A stretch of 64,000 nucleotides of DNA from Candidatus Heimdallarchaeum aukensis (GTDB lineage: Archaea; Asgardarchaeota; Heimdallarchaeia; Heimdallarchaeales; Heimdallarchaeaceae). Every line of letters begins with the position of its first letter. Positions within the stretch are counted from its first letter, which is position 1. Shown here in pieces: positions 1 to 64,000 of this stretch. The translations under genes were made by a program, and so were the position numbers. The notes under the pieces are model-generated. The model was not told where the DNA came from. It did not search any database and saw nothing but the letters and a program-made list of their open reading frames with translations. The stretch covers positions 960,001 through 1,024,000 of the forward strand of contig CP084166.1 in NCBI GenBank assembly GCA_021513695.1, in the 5' to 3' direction.

Positions 1-1584
1 AAGTAGTGTGAAAATGCTTCATCTGCTAAAAGTTGTAGTTGTTCATAAAGGTTTAAGCTGAACTAAGTAGTGTGAAAATTGTGCTACATATATACACACC
101 TATATCCTGTTTATCGTTTAAGCTGAACTAAGTAGTGTGAAAATATCCTGATAGGTGAGTCCTACAGGAGAAAGAAAAAGTTTAAGCTGAACTAAGTAGT
201 GTGAAAATATCCTGATAGGTGAGTCCTACAGGAGAAAGAAAAAGTTTAAGCTGAACTAAGTAGTGTGAAAATCCCAATAGCATCCTCTTTTATCTGGGGC
301 TTGGTTTATGTTTAAGCTGAACTAAGTAGTGTGAAAATCTGTGATTTCTGCGGAAATAAACATGTGACGGAAAGTTTAAGCTGAACTAAGTAGTGTGAAA
401 ATGCAACTCTTTCCGTCCAGCGCACTAAAGCTGCTTTTGGGTTTAAGCTGAACTAAGTAGTGTGAAAATGTTTTTCATGGTAGCTTGCTACCAAAAATTT
501 ACTTAAAAGTTTAAGCTGAACTAAGTAGTGTGAAAATGAGACTGTTAATAGCGAAGTCAGATTCCTCAAAAGGTGTTTAAGCTGAACTAAGTAGTGTGAA
601 AATTTGTCTTTACACAGGGCATTCTCAGTTCTGGAGGAAGTTTAAGCTGAACTAAGTAGTGTGAAAATCACATAAACAAATTAGAAAGCGAAATAACCAC
701 AGTTGTTTAAGCTGAACTAAGTAGTGTGAAAATCAATATTCTTCATCTTCTTCTAAATCATACAATAGCGTTTAAGCTGAACTAAGTAGTGTGAAAATAG
801 AAAAGAGGAACCGTTGTTCTTAAAGGTAAAAATCGTTTAAGCTGAACTAAGTAGTGTGAAAATAAAGAGTATTGAACTCCTGGTTCAAAACTGATTTTGC
901 AGTGTTTAAGCTGAACTAAGTAGTGTGAAAATTAATTGCTTTTTTGTCTGCATGACTTGGTAATTCAAAGTTTAAGCTGAACTAAGTAGTGTGAAAATTT
1001 CAAGGTGAGACCAACGATCCTGGTTACTTCGGTTGTTTAAGCTGAACTAAGTAGTGTGAAAATAATATGTAATTAAATAAGTTTTTATTGTGGTAAAATG
1101 TTTAAGCTGAACTAAGTAGTGTGAAAATACATTAAGAAAACGCTTACCATCTAAAGAAACAATCGTTTAAGCTGAACTAAGTAGTGTGAAAATTCATAAG
1201 TTGACCAATATTCAGAAATTACATAACGTTTAAGCTGAACTAAGTAGTGTGAAAATGAAAGCGTTTAGAATTGGTGGCGGTTCTGGTTGCAGGTTTAAGC
1301 TGAACTAAGTAGTGTGAAAATTACTGGGCAATGGAAAAAAGCTGTTGCCGCATTCAAGTTTAAGCTGAACTAAGTAGTGTGAAAATTAACTCACTCGCTC
1401 ACCCTCAGAGAGAGCCACAAACGTTTAAGCTGAACTAAGTAGTGTGAAAATTAATTTACGTCATGACTATGATGCGACCCCCAACGAGGTTTAAGCTGAA
1501 CTAAGTAGTGTGAAAATATTTGACTACTAGGTTTAGGTTTGAATATGAACCAGAGTTTAAGCTGAACTAAGTAGTGTGAAAAAA
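1..1584 (+). CRISPR. CRISPR array: 25 direct repeats (first one partial at the window edge) of the 29-bp unit GTTTAAGCTGAACTAAGTAGTGTGAAAAT, with 24 spacers of 34-40 bp. The last repeat (1555-1584) is degenerate (GAAAAAT).
   Basis: Seen directly: perfectly conserved 29-mer at regular 64-69 bp spacing (e.g. 51-79, 116-144, 180-208 ... 1489-1517, 1555-1583). The array continues beyond the 5' window edge. Orientation is inferred from the GTTT...GAAAAT repeat ends and from the degenerate repeat sitting at the 3' side. Confidence 0.97.
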
Positions 1585-1606
1585 TAGATTGCCGATTAAA
1601 TTTTCT

Positions 1607-52264: not shown

Positions 52265-52345
52265 AGCTGTATCAATTCCATGTTGTAGGTTTTTTGGGCT
52301 TAATTCCTAGAGAATTTAGGATAAAGAAAGAAACTTACAAATTTG

Positions 52346-52699
52346 CTATTCCTGCTTGGTTAGCTGTACATCACCAACATAGAAGAAAAGGTTTAGCAAA
52401 AATGATGGGCAAAAAGATGCTTGAGATTGCTCAACAGGAATCATTTGATGGAGGTCTTGCTTTATTTGAACCAGAACAACATCGTTTGTTTTCTTGTAAA
52501 CAGCTCTAACAAAATAGTTTTTCTTAACTGTTGGAGAACCAAAAATTAACTTTATAGTTTTACCAGAAAAAAGAATAGAAGCTCCTTCTTCAATAGCTGC
52601 AGGGTCAGATAAGAAAGATTCAGAGAGTAGATCAGCTATTTTATTGTATTCTTTTTCTTCCAGCGTATATTGTTCTATTAGATAATCCTCATTATTCAT
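52346..52699 (-). CDS. Hypothetical protein, with its start placed at MNNEDY.
   Basis: The protein-like portion begins at 52699. Its 3' third overlaps a plus-strand ORF carrying a GNAT-like motif, so the extent is uncertain. Confidence 0.3.
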   Translation of the reverse strand: MNNEDYLIEQYTLEEKEYNKIADLLSESFLSDPAAIEEGASILFSGKTIKLIFGSPTVKKNYFVRAVYKKTNDVVLVQIKQDLHQMIPVEQSQASFCPSFLLNLFFYVGDVQLTKQE

Positions 52700-52920
52700 C
52701 TGTTTCAAAAACTTGAAGTTGTTTTTATTTTTTTCTCGATTTAAGAAAAAAGAGAAGTCAAAGATTTTTACAATTGAACAGTAATAGTCTAAGTTCGACA
52801 ATAATAGTCTATATCCGATAGTAATAATAAACACTTTATTAATACAACGATAAATTGAAAAGTTTTATATTTGTGTGTTATTTTATTAAAGTGGCAAAGA
52901 AAAATAAAGGAAGAAGAAAA

Positions 52921-53361
52921 GTGATTGAGTCAGTCTATATTATTTCCCGAACAGGATTACCTTTACTTTATGTAGATTTTGTTTCACAAGAAGATGATGT
53001 AGATGCCGTAACTTTATTTTCTGGAATAATTTCAGCGATACAAGTAGCAATGGCTGAAATTGATGTAGGTGTTCCGTCATTCTTTGATACAGAAAAAAAT
53101 GAAATCTTCATGAATGTAACAGAAAAATTTGCTATTGCTGTAGTAAAAAACCAAGAACCAATAGATAGAAATGAAATGAATAAACTAATGGATCAAATTC
53201 AAACCCTAGTATCATTTGATCAAGAAGTGGAAGATTTTAGTACCATTAGTGATGAAACAAAAAATAAAATTTCCAAAAAAATAAGGGAAATAGTTAATAA
53301 CTGGGAAGACTATATTAGCGAGAGAGAAGCAACAAAAAGAATAACGGAATCATTATGGTAA
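52921..53361 (+). CDS. Roadblock/LC7 (MglB-like) domain protein.
   Basis: 'VIESVYIISRTGLPLLYVDF…DAVTLFSGIISAIQVAMAEIDVG…EIFMNVTEKFAIAVVKN' follows the roadblock beta-alpha-beta-beta pattern. GTG 52921 is the likely start; the ORF track gives 52855. Confidence 0.55.
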   Translation: MIESVYIISRTGLPLLYVDFVSQEDDVDAVTLFSGIISAIQVAMAEIDVGVPSFFDTEKNEIFMNVTEKFAIAVVKNQEPIDRNEMNKLMDQIQTLVSFDQEVEDFSTISDETKNKISKKIREIVNNWEDYISEREATKRITESLW

Positions 53362-53378
53362 AAAGGTGAAAAATACAA

Positions 53379-54122
53379 ATGGTTGTCTGGCAAAATAAAA
53401 TTCCAATAAGTTCTATAATCTTTGAACTAGTGGTTGTTATTGCGCTAACTTTTATGGTAATAACAATTTTTGCAAGGTATTTTGCAAAAAGAAAAAAACC
53501 TGTGTTATATCTGGCTTTAGCATACCTGTTTTACGATCTTGCAACTTTAACAAGCTGTATCGGTCGGTGGTTAGGTTATTTCTCTTCAATTCCCTATACC
53601 GAGTTCTCATATACTGACTTTACAACCTTATTTGCATATGTGCTAATGGCTATAGCGAACGTATTTATTGCTGCATTTATTGACACAATATTTATTCAAA
53701 AAGGAGTAGATTTTGTCGCATTCTTTGCTATATTGAGCGGAATAATAATAGGTATGATAGTCCCTATACTGAATTTTGAATGGGGAAACATGAGATCACA
53801 TGTCTTAATAGTATCTTACCATTTAATACTTTCAATATTAATATTTCTAATACTAGCAATTGTGTCTTTAAGAGAAGCTAAAATGAATAAAAAGAAAATA
53901 GCAAAAATAGGTTTCGCTCTAATTGGAACCTATGCTATATTCATGATTCTATTATTTGTTTCATTTACATCAGATTCACTGCTTATAACTTATGTAGACG
54001 CATTTTCAAAGGGATACTCTCCTGCATATTACTTTGGATGGACACTTTTAGTTATAGGATCAATAATAGGTTATCTTGGACTAATTATGCCTAAATGGTT
54101 CGTAAAGATGCTTAAGTTATAA
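53379..54122 (+). CDS. Seven-TM membrane protein.
   Basis: Seven hydrophobic helices of ~20 aa counted by eye; 4-nt gap to the roadblock gene. Confidence 0.5.
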   Translation: MVVWQNKIPISSIIFELVVVIALTFMVITIFARYFAKRKKPVLYLALAYLFYDLATLTSCIGRWLGYFSSIPYTEFSYTDFTTLFAYVLMAIANVFIAAFIDTIFIQKGVDFVAFFAILSGIIIGMIVPILNFEWGNMRSHVLIVSYHLILSILIFLILAIVSLREAKMNKKKIAKIGFALIGTYAIFMILLFVSFTSDSLLITYVDAFSKGYSPAYYFGWTLLVIGSIIGYLGLIMPKWFVKMLKL

Positions 54123-54239
54123 TTAAATTAAATAAAATATAAAATCACTTTTTTCTTTTTTTTTAATATTACTTCATTATTCATGAGTTGAAATTTTACT
54201 TAATTTCTTCAGGACTCTACCCAACCAGTCAACAAACAT

Positions 54240-54400
54240 ATCGAAAGTTGTGAGGACTGGGTTAAGAGAACATGAAAGACACAGTCTTAATTAAGTTCTC
54301 TAGGGGGTTCATCTCCTGATTCCGGGCACTCATCACTCCCACAGGGAAGACCGGGTGTCGTAGGAATGAAACCTACGTCTTTAAGCATCTAGCTCAAGAC
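54240..54400 (+). ncRNA. Candidate structured ncRNA: a GC-rich island (~55% GC against a ~30% background) with hairpins. Identity and strand unknown.
   Basis: GC count of 39/70 for 54291-54360. Hairpins CGTAGG-AATGAA-ACCTACG (54359-54377) and GACTG…CAGTC (54255-54285). No ORF. Confidence 0.3.
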
Positions 54401-54593
54401 ACTATATAAATGATAATTGATTATATAAAGACAGCTGAAAAGTCTTGACACTCCCCCATATCGTGTAATCTTTCTAATAACTCCACAAACTAAAAATTTA
54501 GTTCTTTACGTAAAAAAGTATTTCATCTATATTTGTGTTAAGCAAAAATGGTTGATGAAACATATTCTTTATAAAAGTTAATGTGAAAGATAA

Positions 54594-55313
54594 ATGCGTA
54601 ATGTGGGTTTTATGAACAAATCATCCGTGAAAAGAAATTTAATGATTGTAAGAGAACAGGATGTTGTTGTTACTGGCGGTGTGGTTTTTATTGGAGATGG
54701 ACATACTGGCAAAACGCATACAGCTCTTAATCTTGTAAGAAATAAGGATAGATATAAGAAAACAGACTTGATCTCGAAGTCAATAAATGTAGAATTTGAC
54801 TATTTTGTTTATCAATCTAATTACCAACAGTATAAATTTACAATAAGTGCACAATTGTTTATATTTCCCGGGCAAAAAGGACGAGCGAAAAAAGGAGAAG
54901 GGTTAGCATTTGAGGATGCTCTAGACCTGTATTTTGATGTTAGAACGGTGAAAGAGGTTATTGTTCTAATACTAACTTTCAATCTTACAGATATAGCTAC
55001 ATTTCAAAACTTAGAATATTGGGTTAAAACAGCTATAGAGAATAATTTAGTCTCAGAAGCAACTAACATAATTTTGTTAGGTACTCACTACGATAAGAAA
55101 TCAAACATTGCTGTGAATGAAACAGATATTATACATGGAAAAAAATTTGTTCAAGAACAAATTGCTAATGAATTGAATATTGATTTTCCTCTGAAACAGA
55201 TCACTGAAGTGAATATATCAAATTTGACAGAAGAAGGTATCGAAAATTTAATTGGAGCGATTATAGACGCTTTTTTCAACGTTTTTAATATAGATGAGTT
55301 TAATTTAATTTAG
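54594..55313 (+). CDS. Divergent small GTPase (Ras-superfamily-like).
   Basis: P-loop 'GDGHTGKT'; G3-like 'IFPGQ'; G4-like 'LLGTHYDKK'; G5-like 'ISNL'. Confidence 0.6.
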   Translation: MRNVGFMNKSSVKRNLMIVREQDVVVTGGVVFIGDGHTGKTHTALNLVRNKDRYKKTDLISKSINVEFDYFVYQSNYQQYKFTISAQLFIFPGQKGRAKKGEGLAFEDALDLYFDVRTVKEVIVLILTFNLTDIATFQNLEYWVKTAIENNLVSEATNIILLGTHYDKKSNIAVNETDIIHGKKFVQEQIANELNIDFPLKQITEVNISNLTEEGIENLIGAIIDAFFNVFNIDEFNLI

Positions 55314-55334: not shown

Positions 55335-58300
55335 ATGAAGTTTCAAAAGCATATAATAATCACAATAAATTTTTTATTAATTTTACAGTCATTGTTATAT
55401 ATTCAAAATATTAGCAATTCACAAAAAGATAGACAGAATATTACTCAGATTATCCCAGGAAACATTGAAAACAATCAACAAGAGAGTATTTATCATTCAG
55501 ATGTTTCCTCAACAAATGTACATACAACTCTTACTCAAGGAACAAACAAAACTTTTGGTTTCTTTACGCAAGATAGCTATGTAAATTTAGATTCTGATGG
55601 AAATGTGTTTCAATGGGAAAAGTATGATGTTGTAAAAGATACAGGTGATAATAGTGTTTATGCTGATTTTGCAATGGATTACTCTTATTCTTATACTTGG
55701 CCAAGTTCTCCTAATAGCTATGTTCCATTAATTGATATTGAAACAGGAACACAACTAGCTTCAACCTTTAGTCCTCCTTTTTCAGAGACTACTTATCTAT
55801 CAGGAAAAGTTTACTTCTTAACATATATTTCCACTTATGTATCAAGTTTTACCATTACTTTAACTCTCAGAATTCGATTGTGGTTATATAATCCTAATGA
55901 TGGAGGACTTACAGAAATTTTAACTATCGAATCTGTTCTTCCCGATAATTCTGATTTAACACAACGTGTTTATTCTTCAACTTTAGAAGATAAAGTTACC
56001 ATCCCCTCAGGTTATAGATTAAAAGTAACTTATGAAGCAAAAACGAGCAGAATAGATAGAGCTGCTTATGTTCATCTTGAAACTGGAGAATATTCAGATG
56101 GTGACCAAGTTAACTGGCAGATAAATGACGCAGAGTATTCTAACACTTATACTTTAAATGACGTTACTTCAGCTCTAGGTGTACAGTTGTATATGTATGA
56201 TGAAACATATCCTACTATTTCAATTTCTGGAGCAGAAAACAATACGATTTATTACGATACTAATGAAATAACAATCAGTACATCTGGAGCAGTAAGTAAT
56301 TCCTACAAATGGGACAGTAATTCATATACTGCTTTTGATCCTCCTGTGAATACAACTCTCCCTTCATCAACAGGTTGGCATTATTTGTATATTCAAGCAC
56401 TAGATGAATATGATAACAAAAATGAAGTAGTATACAAAATAGGCTATGAAAGTTCTAGCATAGTTTTACATAATGCAAACAATAATTCTTTAGTTCCAAA
56501 TAATTTTCTTCTTAACTTTAGTTTGTCTGGATACGATTCAGCGCAATATGCTTGGGATAGTGGAGGAAATTATACTTTTTCTGATCCTTATGACATTTCA
56601 GTACCAGATTTCTCAGGAGAGCACACACTCTATATTTATACAGTAAGCAGCTTTGGAGAAAATAAAACTGTTTATGTTTTTGAAGTTGATAACAGCCCGC
56701 CCTTAATCTCCTTAAGAGACTTAAGCAACGATACTACACAACCTACAAACAAGAAAATTGAACTGAATATTACAGATCAAACTTCAACTATTGAAGTTCT
56801 ATATAATTGGGATAATGTTGCTAATTCAACCTGGAGCCCATTAGAAGGAACAATCTACCAAACTTTTGCTCCAGATACTGATGGTTTTCATTGGCTCAAT
56901 GTATATGCAAACGATAGTTTTGGTCATATTATTGATGTACATTACAGATTTAATATTAGTTCAGACTATTTGCTGGTAGAATTAAGAACAATGATAAATG
57001 ACAGTTATTATTACGGAGGAAACACAGTTGAGGTTACGATTACAGGTACAAATGGGACAATAAAGTATCAGTGGGACTCAAATGGATTCAAAGATGGGGT
57101 AACAGTTGATTCAATCTTGTCTTTATCAGGTTCAGAATCATTACCGAAAGACCTTGGAGTGCATTATCTTACAATAATAGTTGGAGATGTAGATGACAAT
57201 CCCAAATCAACTTTGTTTAAATTTACAATTGACCAAGAAAATCCTGTAGTTTCTAATTTTGGAAATTACAATAATTCAAGATTACACAGTTCCACAATAA
57301 TTGATCTTGAAATAACAGATAATTTTACTTTAAGTAGTGAAATAGAAGCATGGGTATCAATAGATGGAGGAGGAAATATATCTTTTACGTATCCCTATGA
57401 TATTAAAATATCTTCTTTAGAAGATGGAGTTCATAATATTACTGTTTTTGCCTTTGATATTGCGCGAAATAATGTTTCTTGCTTAATAATTTTTGAAATT
57501 GATACGACAGCTCCAGAAATAGATATTGTTTCCATTCAAGGGTTAGAAGTTTCTTCTAGCGGTGTTTCATATATTCCCGGAAATGCAGCAATTGAATGCT
57601 CTTTTGTTGATGCAGACCCCGAAATTTATCACTTTTATTCATGGAATAACTCAGCTTTTACACTATTTGCTGGAAATACTTTTAATTTACCTGATACTGA
57701 TGGAAACGCAACCCTACGCATTTTAGCTAATGATACATTAGGAAATGAGAAAATTTTAACATTAGATCTTTTTATAGACACTACTCCTCCTCAATTGTCT
57801 ATACTGTTTCCTAATAACTACTCTAAAATCAATGAAGCGACACCTTTATTGTTTTTTGCTAATGATAGTGCAAGTGACACCATTTCTTCAATTTCTGCAA
57901 AATGGGACCAATTTCTAGAAGGAAAAATAGACCTTTCTCCACCTTATTTTACAATTTATTTATCAAGTCTTAAAAAACTCTATGAAGAGTTATCAGTTGC
58001 AGAGTTATATATTGATGCAAAAGATATTCTAGGAAATAATTTTACGTATATTTATTCATTTAATCTTGATTTTTCTCCGCCTTCCTACAATTTAGTAGGT
58101 GCCCAAAATAATACTTTTGTAAGAAGTGATACAATCCTTCAATTTGAAAATTTAAGTAATGACTTAATGAAGTTCGTTTATTATTGGGATTCTAATGATA
58201 TATCTATCTTAGATGATCCGTGGACTATATCAATACCAAATAATGATGGGGTACATAATCTTACAGTAATTCTTTACGATAACACAGGTGAGGGATATTA

Positions 58301-59942
58301 CCCAAATTGGGTTAAATCATTTTACACTTTTGTTGTTGATGATATTGGGATTGAAATTACTAGTCCGTCAAGTTTTTCCAATAATACAGAAGTTGGAATT
58401 GTATATAAACAATCATTTACCTTTTCTGTTGATGTCTACGATACAGCAGACAATCAAATTATAGATAATCTTAATTTTGTAATTTTAAACAATACACTGA
58501 ATCTAGAAATAGAGAATGAAACCTTAGATGGAAAAACATATACGATAACCATTCATGGTACAAATGTTGGATCAACAAGATTAATTTTTCAGTTTTCTAA
58601 GGGAAATTCGAATAAACATCAAATTGTTGTTCCTCTTACGATTGAAAAGAAAGAAGGAACAGTTTCATTGTTAGGGACAAGCGTCTTAAGCGTGATATAT
58701 GAAGAAAATTTCACTATAATACTGAATTTAGAGGATGAAAACTCTAATCTTTTAAATATTACCCGGGTGACTGTTAATGGTAGTTTAGTGAGCGATTTTA
58801 TCTATTTAGATGAATATCATGCTATACAATTTAATTATTCTTCAAGAGAAACAATAGGAAAAGGAGAATATAATCTGTTAGTTAATATTGAATCTAATTA
58901 TTACTATGGAGAAAAAATAATTGGCATTGAGGTTAAACCTATCCCTATTATTCTAAGTTTATCAGTCTCAAGTTATACTGTAATTGAAGGTTCTCAAGTT
59001 GCAATTACAGGAACTCTTACTTTTACAAATGGGACTCCGATACCTTCTATAACTCTATACTTTTCTATATATATAGTCTATAAGAATCAGTCCAATAATA
59101 ATGTCATGGCTCTGCCTTCAGAATACGGAAGTAAGGTTGTTTTCTCAGGATTAACTAATTCCTCTGGACAAGTAACGATTGCTTTTGAAATGACTTCAGA
59201 GATAGATTATATTTCAGTTGATTGTTCTTTTGGAGGGAGTAATATCTTTGACACAGTTTACTATGAAATGGAGGAATATATTTATTCTATACCTACTCCA
59301 AAACTTCCAACTTGGATATTATACACAATAATTGGTGGAAGTATTATATTGGCAGCAATAATCTCCTTTGTTGTTTATAAGCTTACTAGACCTAAACCAT
59401 TTGATGAGATATTAAATTCAATTTCTGATAATGATATCGTGATGAACATGACCCGTATCTGCCCTGGTGTTGTTCTATCAATCTTTGATCAACGCAAAGG
59501 TGCAATTCCATTAGTGTCTGATCATTCATTGGATTATAGTTACAGTGGAAGAATTAGGATAGGGCTTGAAAACTTTATGTTGAAAATTTCAGATCAAGCT
59601 TACTCTTCATTGGGCTTTGAAGAGCACCATTCTGGGCGTAGAACAGGAACAATTACTCTACCAAATGAAGGACTTGTAGGTTTTATTCATGGGATACAAT
59701 TGGAAAATAAAGCTGCGAGAGGAGGTTTTGAAAACCTTTCACTTATTGTGCTTGTAGAAAATGAGTACGGGACAATGTTACTTAGTTATCAAGAATACCT
59801 GTATCCCTTAATTGATGAGTTAATTTCCATGCTAAAAAATAAGAAACCGTTGGAGGATATTGAAGAACAATTATCGAATATACGTAGTCAAGCAACAAAA
59901 ACAGTTTTAGCTTCATTAGAATATGAAAATGCAATGTCTTAA
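55335..59942 (+). CDS. Giant (1535 aa) type-I membrane protein. It has a signal peptide, at least 7 extracellular Ig-like repeats each with a W-D-S motif, a single TM (59310-59390) and a ~180-aa cytoplasmic roadblock/longin-like domain.
   Basis: Repeated '…Y(K/A/Q)WDSN…' modules; TM 'WILYTIIGGSIILAAIISFVVYKL'; cytoplasmic '…ICPGVVLSIFDQRKGAIPLVSD…LSLIVLVENEYGTMLL…'. Confidence 0.6.
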   Translation: MKFQKHIIITINFLLILQSLLYIQNISNSQKDRQNITQIIPGNIENNQQESIYHSDVSSTNVHTTLTQGTNKTFGFFTQDSYVNLDSDGNVFQWEKYDVVKDTGDNSVYADFAMDYSYSYTWPSSPNSYVPLIDIETGTQLASTFSPPFSETTYLSGKVYFLTYISTYVSSFTITLTLRIRLWLYNPNDGGLTEILTIESVLPDNSDLTQRVYSSTLEDKVTIPSGYRLKVTYEAKTSRIDRAAYVHLETGEYSDGDQVNWQINDAEYSNTYTLNDVTSALGVQLYMYDETYPTISISGAENNTIYYDTNEITISTSGAVSNSYKWDSNSYTAFDPPVNTTLPSSTGWHYLYIQALDEYDNKNEVVYKIGYESSSIVLHNANNNSLVPNNFLLNFSLSGYDSAQYAWDSGGNYTFSDPYDISVPDFSGEHTLYIYTVSSFGENKTVYVFEVDNSPPLISLRDLSNDTTQPTNKKIELNITDQTSTIEVLYNWDNVANSTWSPLEGTIYQTFAPDTDGFHWLNVYANDSFGHIIDVHYRFNISSDYLLVELRTMINDSYYYGGNTVEVTITGTNGTIKYQWDSNGFKDGVTVDSILSLSGSESLPKDLGVHYLTIIVGDVDDNPKSTLFKFTIDQENPVVSNFGNYNNSRLHSSTIIDLEITDNFTLSSEIEAWVSIDGGGNISFTYPYDIKISSLEDGVHNITVFAFDIARNNVSCLIIFEIDTTAPEIDIVSIQGLEVSSSGVSYIPGNAAIECSFVDADPEIYHFYSWNNSAFTLFAGNTFNLPDTDGNATLRILANDTLGNEKILTLDLFIDTTPPQLSILFPNNYSKINEATPLLFFANDSASDTISSISAKWDQFLEGKIDLSPPYFTIYLSSLKKLYEELSVAELYIDAKDILGNNFTYIYSFNLDFSPPSYNLVGAQNNTFVRSDTILQFENLSNDLMKFVYYWDSNDISILDDPWTISIPNNDGVHNLTVILYDNTGEGYYPNWVKSFYTFVVDDIGIEITSPSSFSNNTEVGIVYKQSFTFSVDVYDTADNQIIDNLNFVILNNTLNLEIENETLDGKTYTITIHGTNVGSTRLIFQFSKGNSNKHQIVVPLTIEKKEGTVSLLGTSVLSVIYEENFTIILNLEDENSNLLNITRVTVNGSLVSDFIYLDEYHAIQFNYSSRETIGKGEYNLLVNIESNYYYGEKIIGIEVKPIPIILSLSVSSYTVIEGSQVAITGTLTFTNGTPIPSITLYFSIYIVYKNQSNNNVMALPSEYGSKVVFSGLTNSSGQVTIAFEMTSEIDYISVDCSFGGSNIFDTVYYEMEEYIYSIPTPKLPTWILYTIIGGSIILAAIISFVVYKLTRPKPFDEILNSISDNDIVMNMTRICPGVVLSIFDQRKGAIPLVSDHSLDYSYSGRIRIGLENFMLKISDQAYSSLGFEEHHSGRRTGTITLPNEGLVGFIHGIQLENKAARGGFENLSLIVLVENEYGTMLLSYQEYLYPLIDELISMLKNKKPLEDIEEQLSNIRSQATKTVLASLEYENAMS

Positions 59943-62686: not shown

Positions 62687-63344
62687 TATATAATAATTAA
62701 ATCATACGAACTTAAAAAAGTGATTATTATCAAATTTATTTTGCAAAAAAAAGTAATTTCTATTATTCTTTATGCTAAAGGGTATTTGGAAATAAAACAT
62801 GCTTATTACACCCTATTCAAAAATTCAAACTAGTACTTAAAATAACTAAAATAATTTTAGTAAAAGTGAATTTAACATCTATCTAAATCTTAATAAAATT
62901 TTAACATTGTTTGAATTCGGTGGCAAAAAATGGGTGAATACGTTTGTCTACAAAGATTTTATGAATAATAAAGTATTCTCACTTAGCAGACCCACTAAAA
63001 AGCCACAGCAGTATTTTTCTAGCTACTTGGAGTTAATAGGTAATACACCTTTAGTTTTTTTGAATAAGGTGAGTAAAGCTATTAACCACGAACTCTATGA
63101 TTTACTTTTTTACGTAAAGTTTTTCGCGCTCTGTCTTGCAAGAGAGAAAACAAGTAAAAGTTTAATCTCTTGAACTCAACCAAGCCATACAATGCTATGA
63201 AGAGGATGAGACAGACATCATACACGAATCGTGGGAATCATAAAGAAGAAAAGAACTAAAAACTCTTTTCTTCACTCCACGAGAGACAAAAAGAAAGAAA
63301 GATTTCCTCCTCCTACAGGAGAGAATTTGTCCTTTCGTTTTTGT

Positions 63345-64000
63345 CTACTGGGACTGCAACCAATGGCTGAGCCCTAGGCAAACAGTGAAATGGGTAGAAC
63401 TGTATCTTTGACCAGTGAGGTAATCAGTGATAGTGTTTCCTTGAGGACTGAAAAGAGCACCAAGGAACTTACGAGCGATATTCATTGCTCCTGTGAGGTC
63501 AGAGTGGAAAGTGTAATTGCAAGAAGAACAATGAACTAAACCTCTTACTGGACGGACAACTTTCCTTCCACAACGAGCACAGTGAGAAGATGTCCCTTTT
63601 TCCTCTATCGTTAATATTCGGTGAGGGTCAAAACCTCTTAATATTAGTGCCCGACGGAGAAGAGTAAGAACAAGGTAAAAATTCCACTGATGAAGTTTCC
63701 TGCGAAACTTACGAGTACTTTTACCTTTCTCTTTTCCTTTCTCCTCGCGAACATGTTTAGGGTAACCTACAACGACGAAAAGGTCATACATTCGCGCATA
63801 GGTCTCTATCGTCTGCACAACCTCACTTACAAATTGGTAAATATAGGCTCGTTTAACGTTTCTATATCTTCTTCGAAGAAGACTAAGAAAACGATAAACT
63901 TGATGTTTTTTACCCGACTGGTCGTTTAAAGCTGCTTTTCTCTGAAGACGGGAAAGTTTGACTTTATATCGATGGTTGACTCTATTCCACTGTTTGGTAT
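63345..64000 (-). CDS. tnpB: TnpB-like (IS200/IS605 OrfB family) protein, C-terminal ~215 aa. The gene continues past the 3' window edge.
   Basis: Minus-strand frame is open to the window end ('TKQWNRVNHRYKVKLSRLQRKAALNDQSGKK…'). Zinc finger 'CARCGRKV…CSSCN'; RuvC-III-like 'SDLTGAMNIA'. Confidence 0.65.
   Translation of the reverse strand, partial: TKQWNRVNHRYKVKLSRLQRKAALNDQSGKKHQVYRFLSLLRRRYRNVKRAYIYQFVSEVVQTIETYARMYDLFVVVGYPKHVREEKGKEKGKSTRKFRRKLHQWNFYLVLTLLRRALILRGFDPHRILTIEEKGTSSHCARCGRKVVRPVRGLVHCSSCNYTFHSDLTGAMNIARKFLGALFSPQGNTITDYLTGQRYSSTHFTVCLGLSHWLQSQ

What the first reader, a model, noticed from the sequence alone, without database searches (positions are those of the whole stretch)
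54240..54400. GC-rich island in an AT-rich intergenic region: candidate structured RNA
Over about 160 nt the GC content rises to about 55%, while the surrounding DNA is about 30%. The segment contains perfect hairpins (CGTAGG/CCTACG with a 7-nt loop; GACTG…CAGTC) and no ORF. In AT-rich archaea such islands nearly always mark stable RNAs. Strings like ACAGGGAAGACCGGGUG loosely recall RNase P / SRP-type conserved regions, but I cannot assign a family. Its position inside the GTPase island is notable.
Basis: seen in the sequence. Interest (0 to 1): 0.5.

Follow-up and report, generated by a model that had tools for sequence, protein, structure and literature searches.

The report
Structured core of a mobile MITE
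The GC-rich island is not a housekeeping RNA gene: it is the strongly conserved, self-folding centre of a ~345-bp non-coding jumping element (a MITE) that inserted here in one Heimdallarchaeum lineage and has the same ends as TnpB-carrying insertion sequences in these genomes.

Summary
The island exists, but it is less GC-rich than reported. GC is 46.6% over 54240-54400. The 100-nt peak of 53% is the highest in the window and the only strong peak outside an open frame or the CRISPR array. No Rfam family and no tRNA matches it.

In the sister genome, Ca. Heimdallarchaeum endolithica, and in an outgroup, the spacer runs straight from window 54184 to 54522. So 54185-54524 is an insertion, flanked by a duplicated AT.

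Four more copies were found (83-93% identity): three dispersed in H. endolithica and one on a metagenome contig. One of them interrupts an IS605 tnpA gene. All have imperfect terminal inverted repeats matching the ends of Asgard TnpB-only insertion sequences, one of which lies at window 63097-64000.

The GC-rich core (54209-54401) is the most conserved part: 11% variable columns against 33% in the right arm (p=1e-5). It folds better than shuffled sequence (z -3.3 on +, -2.4 on -). It is non-coding and unrelated to the interior of the TnpB element.

Verdict: a new MITE family whose core is probably an element-encoded structured RNA. The strand and the role are unresolved, and five near-identical copies give no covariation.

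The parts
54183..54184 (.). Left copy of the duplicated target dinucleotide AT
   Evidence: The empty site in L002 (ATTATTC-AT-TTATG) and in outgroup L006 has one AT. The filled site has AT on both sides. All 5 copies are bounded AT...AT.
54183..54208 (+). Left terminal inverted repeat (LE-like): ATGAGTTGAAATTTTACTTAATTTC. It includes the small hairpin GAAATT/AATTTC (54190-54207).
   Evidence: It aligns with the LE of the TnpB insertion sequences: L020 ATGAGTGACTTTTTTACTTAAATTT and L019 ATGAGTCTATTTTTTACGTAATTT. It is inverted-repeat related to the right end, 14 of 21 positions (sequence).
54209..54401 (.). The predicted + strand fold has four parts:
- a multibranch domain 54209-54319, with closing helix 54209-14/54314-19, helix 54219-22/54305-08, hairpin 54225-30/54255-60 and hairpin 54265-71/54295-301;
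- hairpin 54325-31/54353-59, with inner stem 54337-40/54344-47;
- hairpin 54360-64/54372-76;
- hairpin 54378-82/54396-400.
   Evidence: - 21 of 192 columns vary, against 33 of 99 in the right arm (Fisher p=1e-5).
- Fold z is -3.31 (+) and -2.38 (-).
- No compensatory pairs.
- No Rfam or tRNA hit.
- Not coding.
54402..54500 (.). AT-rich variable right arm. It contains a TATA-like box at 54422-54429, which reads TTTATATA on the - strand. The window copy lacks about 33 nt, present in the other four copies, near 54472/54473.
   Evidence: Alignment A2. No fold signal, z 0.02. The TATA box lies about 22 nt from the edge of the invariant block at 54401 (sequence). The Logan contig L014 starts at 54474.
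54501..54526 (+). Right terminal inverted repeat (RE-like): ...CTTTACGTAAAAAAGTATTTCAT. It includes the right AT (54525-54526).
   Evidence: 21 of 23 positions are identical to the RE of the TnpB element at window 63119-63097. It is also similar to the REs in L002, L019 and L020...AAAAAGTAAATCAT.
63097..64000 (-). 3' part of a TnpB-only insertion sequence: tnpB 64000-63348 (cut by the window end), then a ~250-nt structured 3' region, then the RE ending at 63097. Its ends match those of the MITE.
   Evidence: tblastn gives 79% identity to the L002 TnpB and 89% to the H. aukensis TnpB P0010. Pfam domain Cas12f1-like_TNB. The 3' region shows 7 compensatory pairs between two copies.

Best explanation
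Window 54183-54526 is one copy of a previously undescribed miniature inverted-repeat transposable element (MITE) of Heimdallarchaeum.

Shown:
- It is a lineage-specific insertion.
- It has at least 5 dispersed copies, 344-381 bp long, with no coding capacity.
- It has imperfect terminal inverted repeats and a 2-bp AT duplication in a loose C-AT-G target.
- Its ends are homologous to those of the Asgard-specific TnpB-only insertion sequences present in the same genomes.
- Its interior is unrelated to that of those insertion sequences.

Inferred:
- A still unidentified transposase moves it in trans, the same one that moves the TnpB elements. TIRs plus a TSD suggest a DDE-type enzyme.

The GC-rich island is the element's central module.
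- Shown: it is the most conserved part, more so than the inverted repeats, and it folds significantly better than shuffled sequence.
- Inferred, about 55-60%: it is transcribed as a stable structured non-coding RNA that benefits the element. The transcript would start either at the internal TATA box on the - strand (TSS near 54400, running out through the left end into flanking DNA) or run on the + strand, which is the tnpB-sense orientation.
- The strand is unresolved.
- The specific role I think most likely is a trans-acting partner RNA for an element-encoded protein such as TnpB. That role is only about 15-20% likely.
For: Insertion:
- The spacers of L002 (H. endolithica; neighbouring protein 91% identical) and outgroup L006 lack 54185-54524 and keep a single AT.

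Repeat family:
- Three more copies lie in CP084167.1 and one in a JGI metagenome.
- Logan contigs break at 54210, 54474 and 54498, as expected for a repeat.
- The covariance model recovers exactly the five copies.

Mobility:
- The L017 copy splits codons 2-3 of an IS605 tnpA gene.
- In the reciprocal case, the TnpB insertion sequence in L002 is inserted at an AT that is unoccupied in the window.

Shared ends.

Core constraint:
- Variable columns are 11% against 33%, p=1e-5.
- Fold z is -3.3 and -2.4, against 0.0 for the arm.

Not coding:
- The substitution pattern of the 33-aa ORF.
- No protein homologues of any reading frame among 5.8e9 proteins.

Literature:
- A MITE interior unrelated to its partner IS is part of the classical definition (PMC3119063).
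- TnpB genes inside transposons with inverted terminal repeats are known (PMC10691335).
Against: - None of the 66 predicted pairs shows a compensatory change. The copies are 91-99% identical in the core, so the structure rests on thermodynamics alone.
- Substitutions that keep pairing as G-U occur on both strands (54225 favours +, 54228 favours -), so the strand is undecided.
- There are no expression data.
- No autonomous partner with a transposase was found. All TnpB elements inspected are TnpB-only.
- The TATA-like box occurs in AT-rich DNA and is mutated in 2 of 5 copies.
- High core conservation could instead reflect a DNA-level function.
Confidence: 0.8

Rival explanations
1. The element is a guide-RNA-only element, analogous to PATE or ORF-less HEARO elements. 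The core would be the scaffold of an omega-RNA-like guide. It would be transcribed from the internal - strand promoter, read out through the element end into flanking DNA, and be used in trans by the Asgard TnpB to cut vacated sites and so retain the MITE.
For: - The ends are shared with TnpB insertion sequences.
- A consensus TTTATATA box sits about 22 nt upstream of the conserved block, on the - strand.
- Conservation runs uninterrupted from there to the very tip of the element.
- There is no oligo-T terminator before the end (sequence).
- PATEs that carry only an omega-RNA used in trans are documented (PMC10055086).
- Rfam also fails to recognise the TnpB element's own structured 3' region, so the lack of an Rfam hit is uninformative.
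Against: - The core has no sequence or covariance-model similarity to the 3' region of the co-resident TnpB elements.
- No reading frame of the core resembles a TnpB C-terminus.
- By end polarity the RNA would leave through the LE-like end, opposite to canonical omega-RNAs.
- Insertion sites share only C-AT-G, with no 4-5-nt TAM.
Confidence: 0.17
2. The core works as DNA, not RNA. It would be a cluster of protein-binding sites, for the transposase or a host factor, or another cis element needed for transposition. The predicted RNA fold would be a by-product of inverted motif pairs.
For: - The pentamer AAGAC/GTCTT occurs 6-7 times per copy against 0.8 expected. Several of the predicted stems are made of these motifs.
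- The same AAGAC motif sits in the RE region of the TnpB elements.
- No covariation was found.
- Both strands fold about equally well.
- Other transposon families use multiple internal end motifs, for example IS607 (PMC6188088).
Against: - The motif explains only about 35 of the 193 conserved nucleotides.
- The TnpB elements that share the ends lack the core, so it is not required by the shared transposase.
- GC enrichment and long-range nested helices (54209-14/54314-19) are not expected for simple binding-site arrays.
Confidence: 0.2
3. The island is a free-standing host structured RNA gene (RNase P, SRP, C/D-box sRNA, intron-containing tRNA or another stable RNA) that happens to lie next to the GTPase gene.
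For: It is a GC island in AT-rich intergenic DNA, and its fold z-score is significant.
Against: - It is absent from the orthologous locus of the sister species and of the outgroup.
- It is multi-copy, with TIRs and a TSD, at unrelated loci.
- No Rfam or ARAGORN hit was found even at E<=10.
Confidence: 0.02
4. The core is a captured or decayed fragment of a higher-GC gene (Pack-MITE-like) with no function. It would look conserved only because the copies are young.
For: Copies are 83-93% identical overall. Several frames stay open for 33-37 codons.
Against: - Within the same copies, the arm and the TIRs have diverged three times more than the core. Youth alone cannot explain that.
- No protein homologue was found for any frame.
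- No rRNA or ncRNA fragment was detected.
Confidence: 0.05

Closest known systems
Prokaryotic and archaeal MITEs (for example Haloquadratum and Sulfolobus MITEs; definition in PMC3119063)
   Same: It is small (344-381 bp) and non-coding. It has terminal inverted repeats related to those of an IS in the same genome. It has a short target duplication and is multi-copy. It shows strain-specific insertions, including insertion into another mobile element. Its interior is unrelated to the partner IS.
   Different: The partner elements identified carry only TnpB, not a transposase. The interior holds a ~190-nt GC-rich module that is better conserved than the TIRs and has a significant fold. The TSD is AT in a C-AT-G context, not the TA of IS630/Tc1-type MITEs.
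PATEs and omega-RNA-only derivatives of IS200/IS605 (PMC3119063, PMC10055086)
   Same: It is a protein-less element linked through its ends to TnpB-carrying elements. It has subterminal palindromes (GAAATT..AATTTC; TTTACGTAAA). It carries a structured non-coding module that could be read out into flanking DNA.
   Different: It has TIRs and a 2-bp duplication, whereas PATEs have neither. It has no specific TAM. The core is not derived from a tnpB 3' end or from the partner's omega-RNA region.
TnpB genes embedded in TIR (DDE-type) transposons (PMC10691335) and the Asgard large TnpB family (480-600 aa)
   Same: The elements that share ends with this MITE have symmetric ends and encode a Cas12f1-like_TNB protein. 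Their homologues are confined to Heimdall- and Thorarchaeota.
   Different: The MITE itself encodes no TnpB. No DDE gene was seen next to the TnpB copies inspected.

Membership tests
MITE | Short (under ~600 bp) and without coding capacity | tested here: met
   Copies are 344-381 bp. The longest ORF is 33-49 aa and is not conserved as protein. No protein homologues were found.
MITE | Terminal inverted repeats | tested here: met
   ATGAGTTGAAATTTTACTTAA pairs with TTACGTAAAAAAGTATTTCAT, imperfect at about 14 of 21 positions, and is conserved in all 5 copies.
MITE | Target-site duplication, shown against an empty site | tested here: met
   AT occurs once in L002 and L006 and twice in the window. 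The same holds for the related TnpB insertion sequence, L002 against window 52280-81.
MITE | Multiple dispersed copies with unrelated flanks | tested here: met
   Five copies next to unrelated genes. Repeat-type contig breaks.
MITE | TIRs match an autonomous element that supplies the transposase | tested here: inconclusive
   The ends match TnpB-only insertion sequences. No transposase gene was found in the four insertion-sequence copies inspected.
PATE / IS200-IS605 omega-RNA-only derivative | No TIRs and no target duplication; insertion 3' of a fixed 4-5-nt TAM | tested here: not met
   TIRs and an AT duplication are present. The 5' flanks are TTCAT, GATAT, TCCAT, CCGAT and ACTAT.
PATE / IS200-IS605 omega-RNA-only derivative | Interior derived from the tnpB 3' end or omega-RNA of a parent element | tested here: not met
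   No similarity was found by blastn, Smith-Waterman (z<=2.1), the covariance model or tblastn.
Rfam families (RNase P, SRP, C/D-box sRNA, ribozymes, group II intron) and tRNA | Covariance-model or ARAGORN match | tested here: not met
   There are 0 hits at gathering score over the whole window. Only chance hits appear at E<=10 on two copies. There are 0 tRNAs.
Functional structured RNA (generic) | Compensatory base changes supporting the helices | tested here: inconclusive
   0 of 66 pairs have double changes. The copies are too similar (core 95% mean identity) for the test to have power.
CRISPR repeat mimic / solitary repeat unit | Similarity to a resident CRISPR repeat | tested here: not met
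   The best local match to the window's repeat is 7 nt, p=0.9. No spacer of the array matches the element.

The most novel reading that the evidence does not exclude
The core is a new class of mobile, promoter-equipped structured RNA of Asgard archaea: a protein-less transposon whose only cargo is a ~220-nt RNA that reads out into flanking DNA and serves in trans as guide or partner for the Asgard-specific large TnpB nucleases. This would extend the 'guide-only element' idea from IS200/IS605 to TIR-type transposons in the closest archaeal relatives of eukaryotes (a Fanzor-like context).
Probability: 0.15. Interest if true: 0.65.

Novelty: new member of a known kind. Interest (0 to 1): 0.36.

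Why it matters
The result corrects a tempting reading, that a GC island in an AT-rich archaeon marks a stable host RNA. Here the island is the cargo of a transposon.

It adds an unannotated MITE family to the repeat-rich Heimdallarchaeum genomes, and it defines the ends and the AT target duplication of their abundant TnpB-only elements.

If the core is an RNA used by TnpB or by the transposase, these elements would be a compact natural system for studying RNA-protein partnerships of TnpB/Fanzor-like nucleases in Asgard archaea.

Practically, such elements break assemblies and sit at synteny breakpoints, so annotating them improves comparative genomics of this clade.

Tried and rejected
- Rfam at gathering score and at E<=10 on the window copy, a second copy and the TnpB 3' region gave only chance hits.
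- ARAGORN found nothing.
- A phage database blastn gave only chance hits.
- Four IMG/VR scans, with three core blocks and the TIR, found no copies.
- An exact look-up of the 33-aa ORF found nothing.
- A search of 5.8e9 proteins with concatenated six-frame peptides, meant to fish out miscalled ORFs on other copies, found nothing.
- A hammerhead-like GUGAUGA and k-turn or C/D motifs on the - strand were rejected, because the key positions vary between copies (G/T at 54334; ATGATAA against ATGAGAA; CTGA against CGGA).
- Group II domain-5 resemblance of hairpin 54265-54301 was rejected: it has a triloop, no AGC triad and no Rfam hit.
- An IS110 bridge-RNA idea was rejected, because the insertion sites share only C-AT-G and the partner elements encode TnpB.
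- An IS607-type origin is unlikely. That family lacks TIRs and uses a GG core (PMC6188088).
- An attempt to fix the strand from G-U against C-A substitutions gave one case each way.
- Searches for an autonomous partner through TnpB homologues and their contigs found only TnpB-only copies.
- A comparison between the CRISPR spacers or repeat and the MITE was negative.

Full report
**Observation.**
The spacer between a 247-aa membrane-protein gene (53379-54122, +) and a Ras-like GTPase gene (54594-55313, +; Pfam Ras and Roc) contains a GC-rich stretch. The 100-nt maximum of 0.53 is the highest in the whole window (mean 0.316, sd 0.06). Almost every other peak of at least 0.44 lies inside a long open frame. 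The exceptions are two small ORFs and a CRISPR array. The quoted hairpins and strings are present. A 220-nt segment folds better than dinucleotide shuffles on both strands, with z -3.31 (+) and -2.38 (-). The adjacent AT-rich 124 nt do not (z 0.02).

**Not a known RNA.**
No Rfam family reaches its gathering score anywhere in the window. At E<=10, only chance matches to eukaryotic snoRNA, lncRNA and miRNA models appear, on the window copy and on a second copy. ARAGORN finds no tRNA.

**It is an insertion.**
The flanking membrane protein is 91% identical to one of Ca. Heimdallarchaeum endolithica and 68% identical to one of a Heimdallarchaeaceae MAG. In the H. endolithica locus (L002), the spacer matches window 54123-54184 and 54522-54556 directly abutted. 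The outgroup locus L006 also lacks the segment. The junctions compare as follows:
- Window: ...ATTATTC-AT-[GAGTTG...GTATTTC]-AT-CTATATTTGTG
- Empty site: ...ATTATTC-AT-TTATGTTTGTG

So 340 bp were inserted, with duplication of AT.

**It is a repeat family.**
A 21-mer from the core hits three further places in the H. endolithica chromosome. A 19-mer hits one JGI metagenome contig. All five copies align end to end at 83-93% identity and are 344-381 bp long. The window copy lacks about 33 nt in the right arm. All five are bounded by AT...AT. Their flanks are unrelated genes: FAD oxidase/GCV-H and BacA, a thioredoxin-reductase-like gene, and an aminotransferase. The L017 copy sits between codons 2 and 3 of the Y1 transposase gene of an IS605 element. 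Removing it restores MPSGYDANLTNVHFIGYHFVWCPKYRRKVL.... Logan assemblies of the same project break at 54210, 54474 and 54498. Those are the positions expected for k-mer graphs entering a repeat and its deletion variant.

**Ends and partner elements.**
The right end, CTTTACGTAAAAAAGTATTTCAT, is 21/23 identical to the right end of a TnpB-only insertion sequence. The 3' part of that element lies at window 63097-64000 on the - strand. Three more copies of that insertion sequence (L002, L019, L020) show these features:
- LE = ATGAGT(G/C)..TTTTTTAC(G/T)TAA..
- RE = ..AAAAAGTAAATCAT
- They are flanked by AT on both sides.

The window provides the empty site for the L002 copy, CAATTCC-AT-GTTG. The MITE's left end, ATGAGTTGAAATTTTACTTAATTTC, is LE-like and its right end is RE-like. 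The window + strand therefore corresponds to the tnpB sense orientation. The pooled targets read roughly C-AT-G.

The TnpB proteins are 480-600 aa with a Cas12f1-like_TNB domain. They form a family confined to Heimdall- and Thorarchaeota, and some sources label them TnpB/InsQ. None of the inspected copies has a neighbouring transposase. TnpB genes inside transposons with inverted terminal repeats have been reported for DDE-associated lineages (PMC10691335). IS607 lacks TIRs and uses a GG core (PMC6188088), and IS200/IS605 elements and PATEs lack TIRs and duplications (PMC3119063), so those families do not fit.

The interior of the MITE shows no similarity to the interior of the TnpB element. 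This holds for blastn and for Smith-Waterman against shuffles (z<=2.1). It also holds for the covariance model R1 and for tblastn of 127 proteins. That matches the classical definition of a MITE (PMC3119063).

**The core.**
Variable columns across the five copies, by segment:

| Segment | Variable columns | Note |
|---|---|---|
| Core 54209-54401 | 21 of 192 | |
| Right arm | 33 of 99 | plus 37 gap columns |
| Left TIR | 7 of 26 | |
| Right TIR | 9 of 25 | |

The core-against-arm comparison gives Fisher p=1e-5. Youth of the copies therefore cannot explain the conservation; the core is under constraint in the lineage of active copies.

It is not coding. The only ATG-initiated ORF (33 aa, - strand) accumulates 6 nonsynonymous, 2 synonymous and 1 nonsense change. 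No reading frame has a homologue among 5.8e9 proteins.

The predicted + strand structure is well defined, with the MFE nearly equal to the centroid:
- a four-helix multibranch domain at 54209-54319;
- three hairpins at 54325-54400.

In that model, 14 of about 22 variable sites fall in unpaired positions, which make up about 40% of the sequence. In the - strand model, 11 of 22 do (my count).

No pair shows a compensatory double change. Single changes that keep a G-U pair occur once for each strand (54225 for +, 54228 for -).

On the - strand, a consensus archaeal TATA box, TTTATATA at 54429-54422, lies about 22 nt upstream of the sharp edge of the invariant block at 54401. It is intact in 3 of 5 copies and has one mismatch in the other two. 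Conservation then runs to the very tip of the element, and no oligo-T run intervenes. This would give an RNA that reads out into flanking DNA.

The pentamer AAGAC/GTCTT occurs 6-7 times per copy against 0.8 expected and forms several stems. A DNA-level role as a binding-site cluster therefore cannot be excluded.

**Interpretation.**
I am confident (about 0.9) that the island is the core of a MITE that inserted here. I am fairly confident that it is mobilised by whatever moves the TnpB elements that share its ends; this is an inference from the shared TIRs and the shared AT duplication.

That the core is an RNA is the best reading (about 0.55-0.6), but it rests on fold statistics, GC enrichment, differential conservation and a plausible promoter. 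It does not rest on covariation or expression.

A guide-RNA-only element analogous to PATEs (PMC10055086) is attractive but weakly supported (about 0.15-0.2). The core does not resemble the TnpB element's own structured 3' region, which does show 7 compensatory pairs between two copies. The RNA would also exit through the LE-like end.

**Comparison and novelty.**
This is a new family of a known kind of element. Its unusual points are the TnpB-only partners with TIRs and an AT duplication in Asgard archaea, and a structured core that is better conserved than the transposase-binding ends.

Noticed in passing
window 1-1585: A CRISPR array runs off the window start. It has at least 24 repeats of (G)TTTAAGCTGAACTAAGTAGTGTGAAAA(T) with 36-42-nt spacers, two of them identical (144-180 and 208-244). 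Its GC-rich spacers make the second non-ORF GC peak (1323-1496). No spacer matches the MITE, the TnpB element or any fetched locus.
   Followed up: partly
window 63097-63347 (- strand); L002 2541-2784; L019 3961-4199; L020 7059-7308: The ~250-nt region between the tnpB stop codon and the right end of the Asgard TnpB element is conserved and structured. It shows 7 compensatory pairs between two copies (alignment). It has no Rfam match. It is a candidate omega-RNA of this TnpB family.
   Followed up: partly
window 52280-52482: An N-myristoyl/acetyltransferase-like gene is broken by an inversion of ~200 bp relative to H. endolithica. The inverted piece is bounded by ATGTTG (52280-85) and CAACAT (52477-82). 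Its left breakpoint is exactly the AT where the sister genome carries the TnpB insertion sequence. This suggests a transposon-mediated rearrangement at a palindromic AT core.
   Followed up: partly
window 54556/54557: Synteny with H. endolithica ends about 30 nt past the MITE. The GTPase gene, the 1535-aa protein gene (55335-59942) and everything up to the window end have no counterpart in the sister locus, which continues with beta-propeller genes. The MITE sits at a rearrangement boundary.
   Followed up: no
L017 3700-6000: A complete IS605-type unit (Y1 tnpA plus a 403-aa tnpB, with GC-rich LE and RE hairpins) has its tnpA inactivated by the MITE copy. This is a mobile element inserted into another mobile element, as described for haloarchaeal MITEs.
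   Followed up: yes
window 54183-54526 and all copies: The pentamer AAGAC/GTCTT is about 9-fold over-represented in the element, 6-7 occurrences against 0.8 expected. It forms the arms of several predicted hairpins. One AAGAC also lies in the RE region of the TnpB elements.
   Followed up: partly
window 52855-54122; L008 and L012 3549-4738: A Roadblock/LC7-like gene (weak Pfam hit) followed immediately by the 244-247-aa multi-pass membrane protein gene is a conserved pair across Heimdallarchaeia.
   Followed up: no
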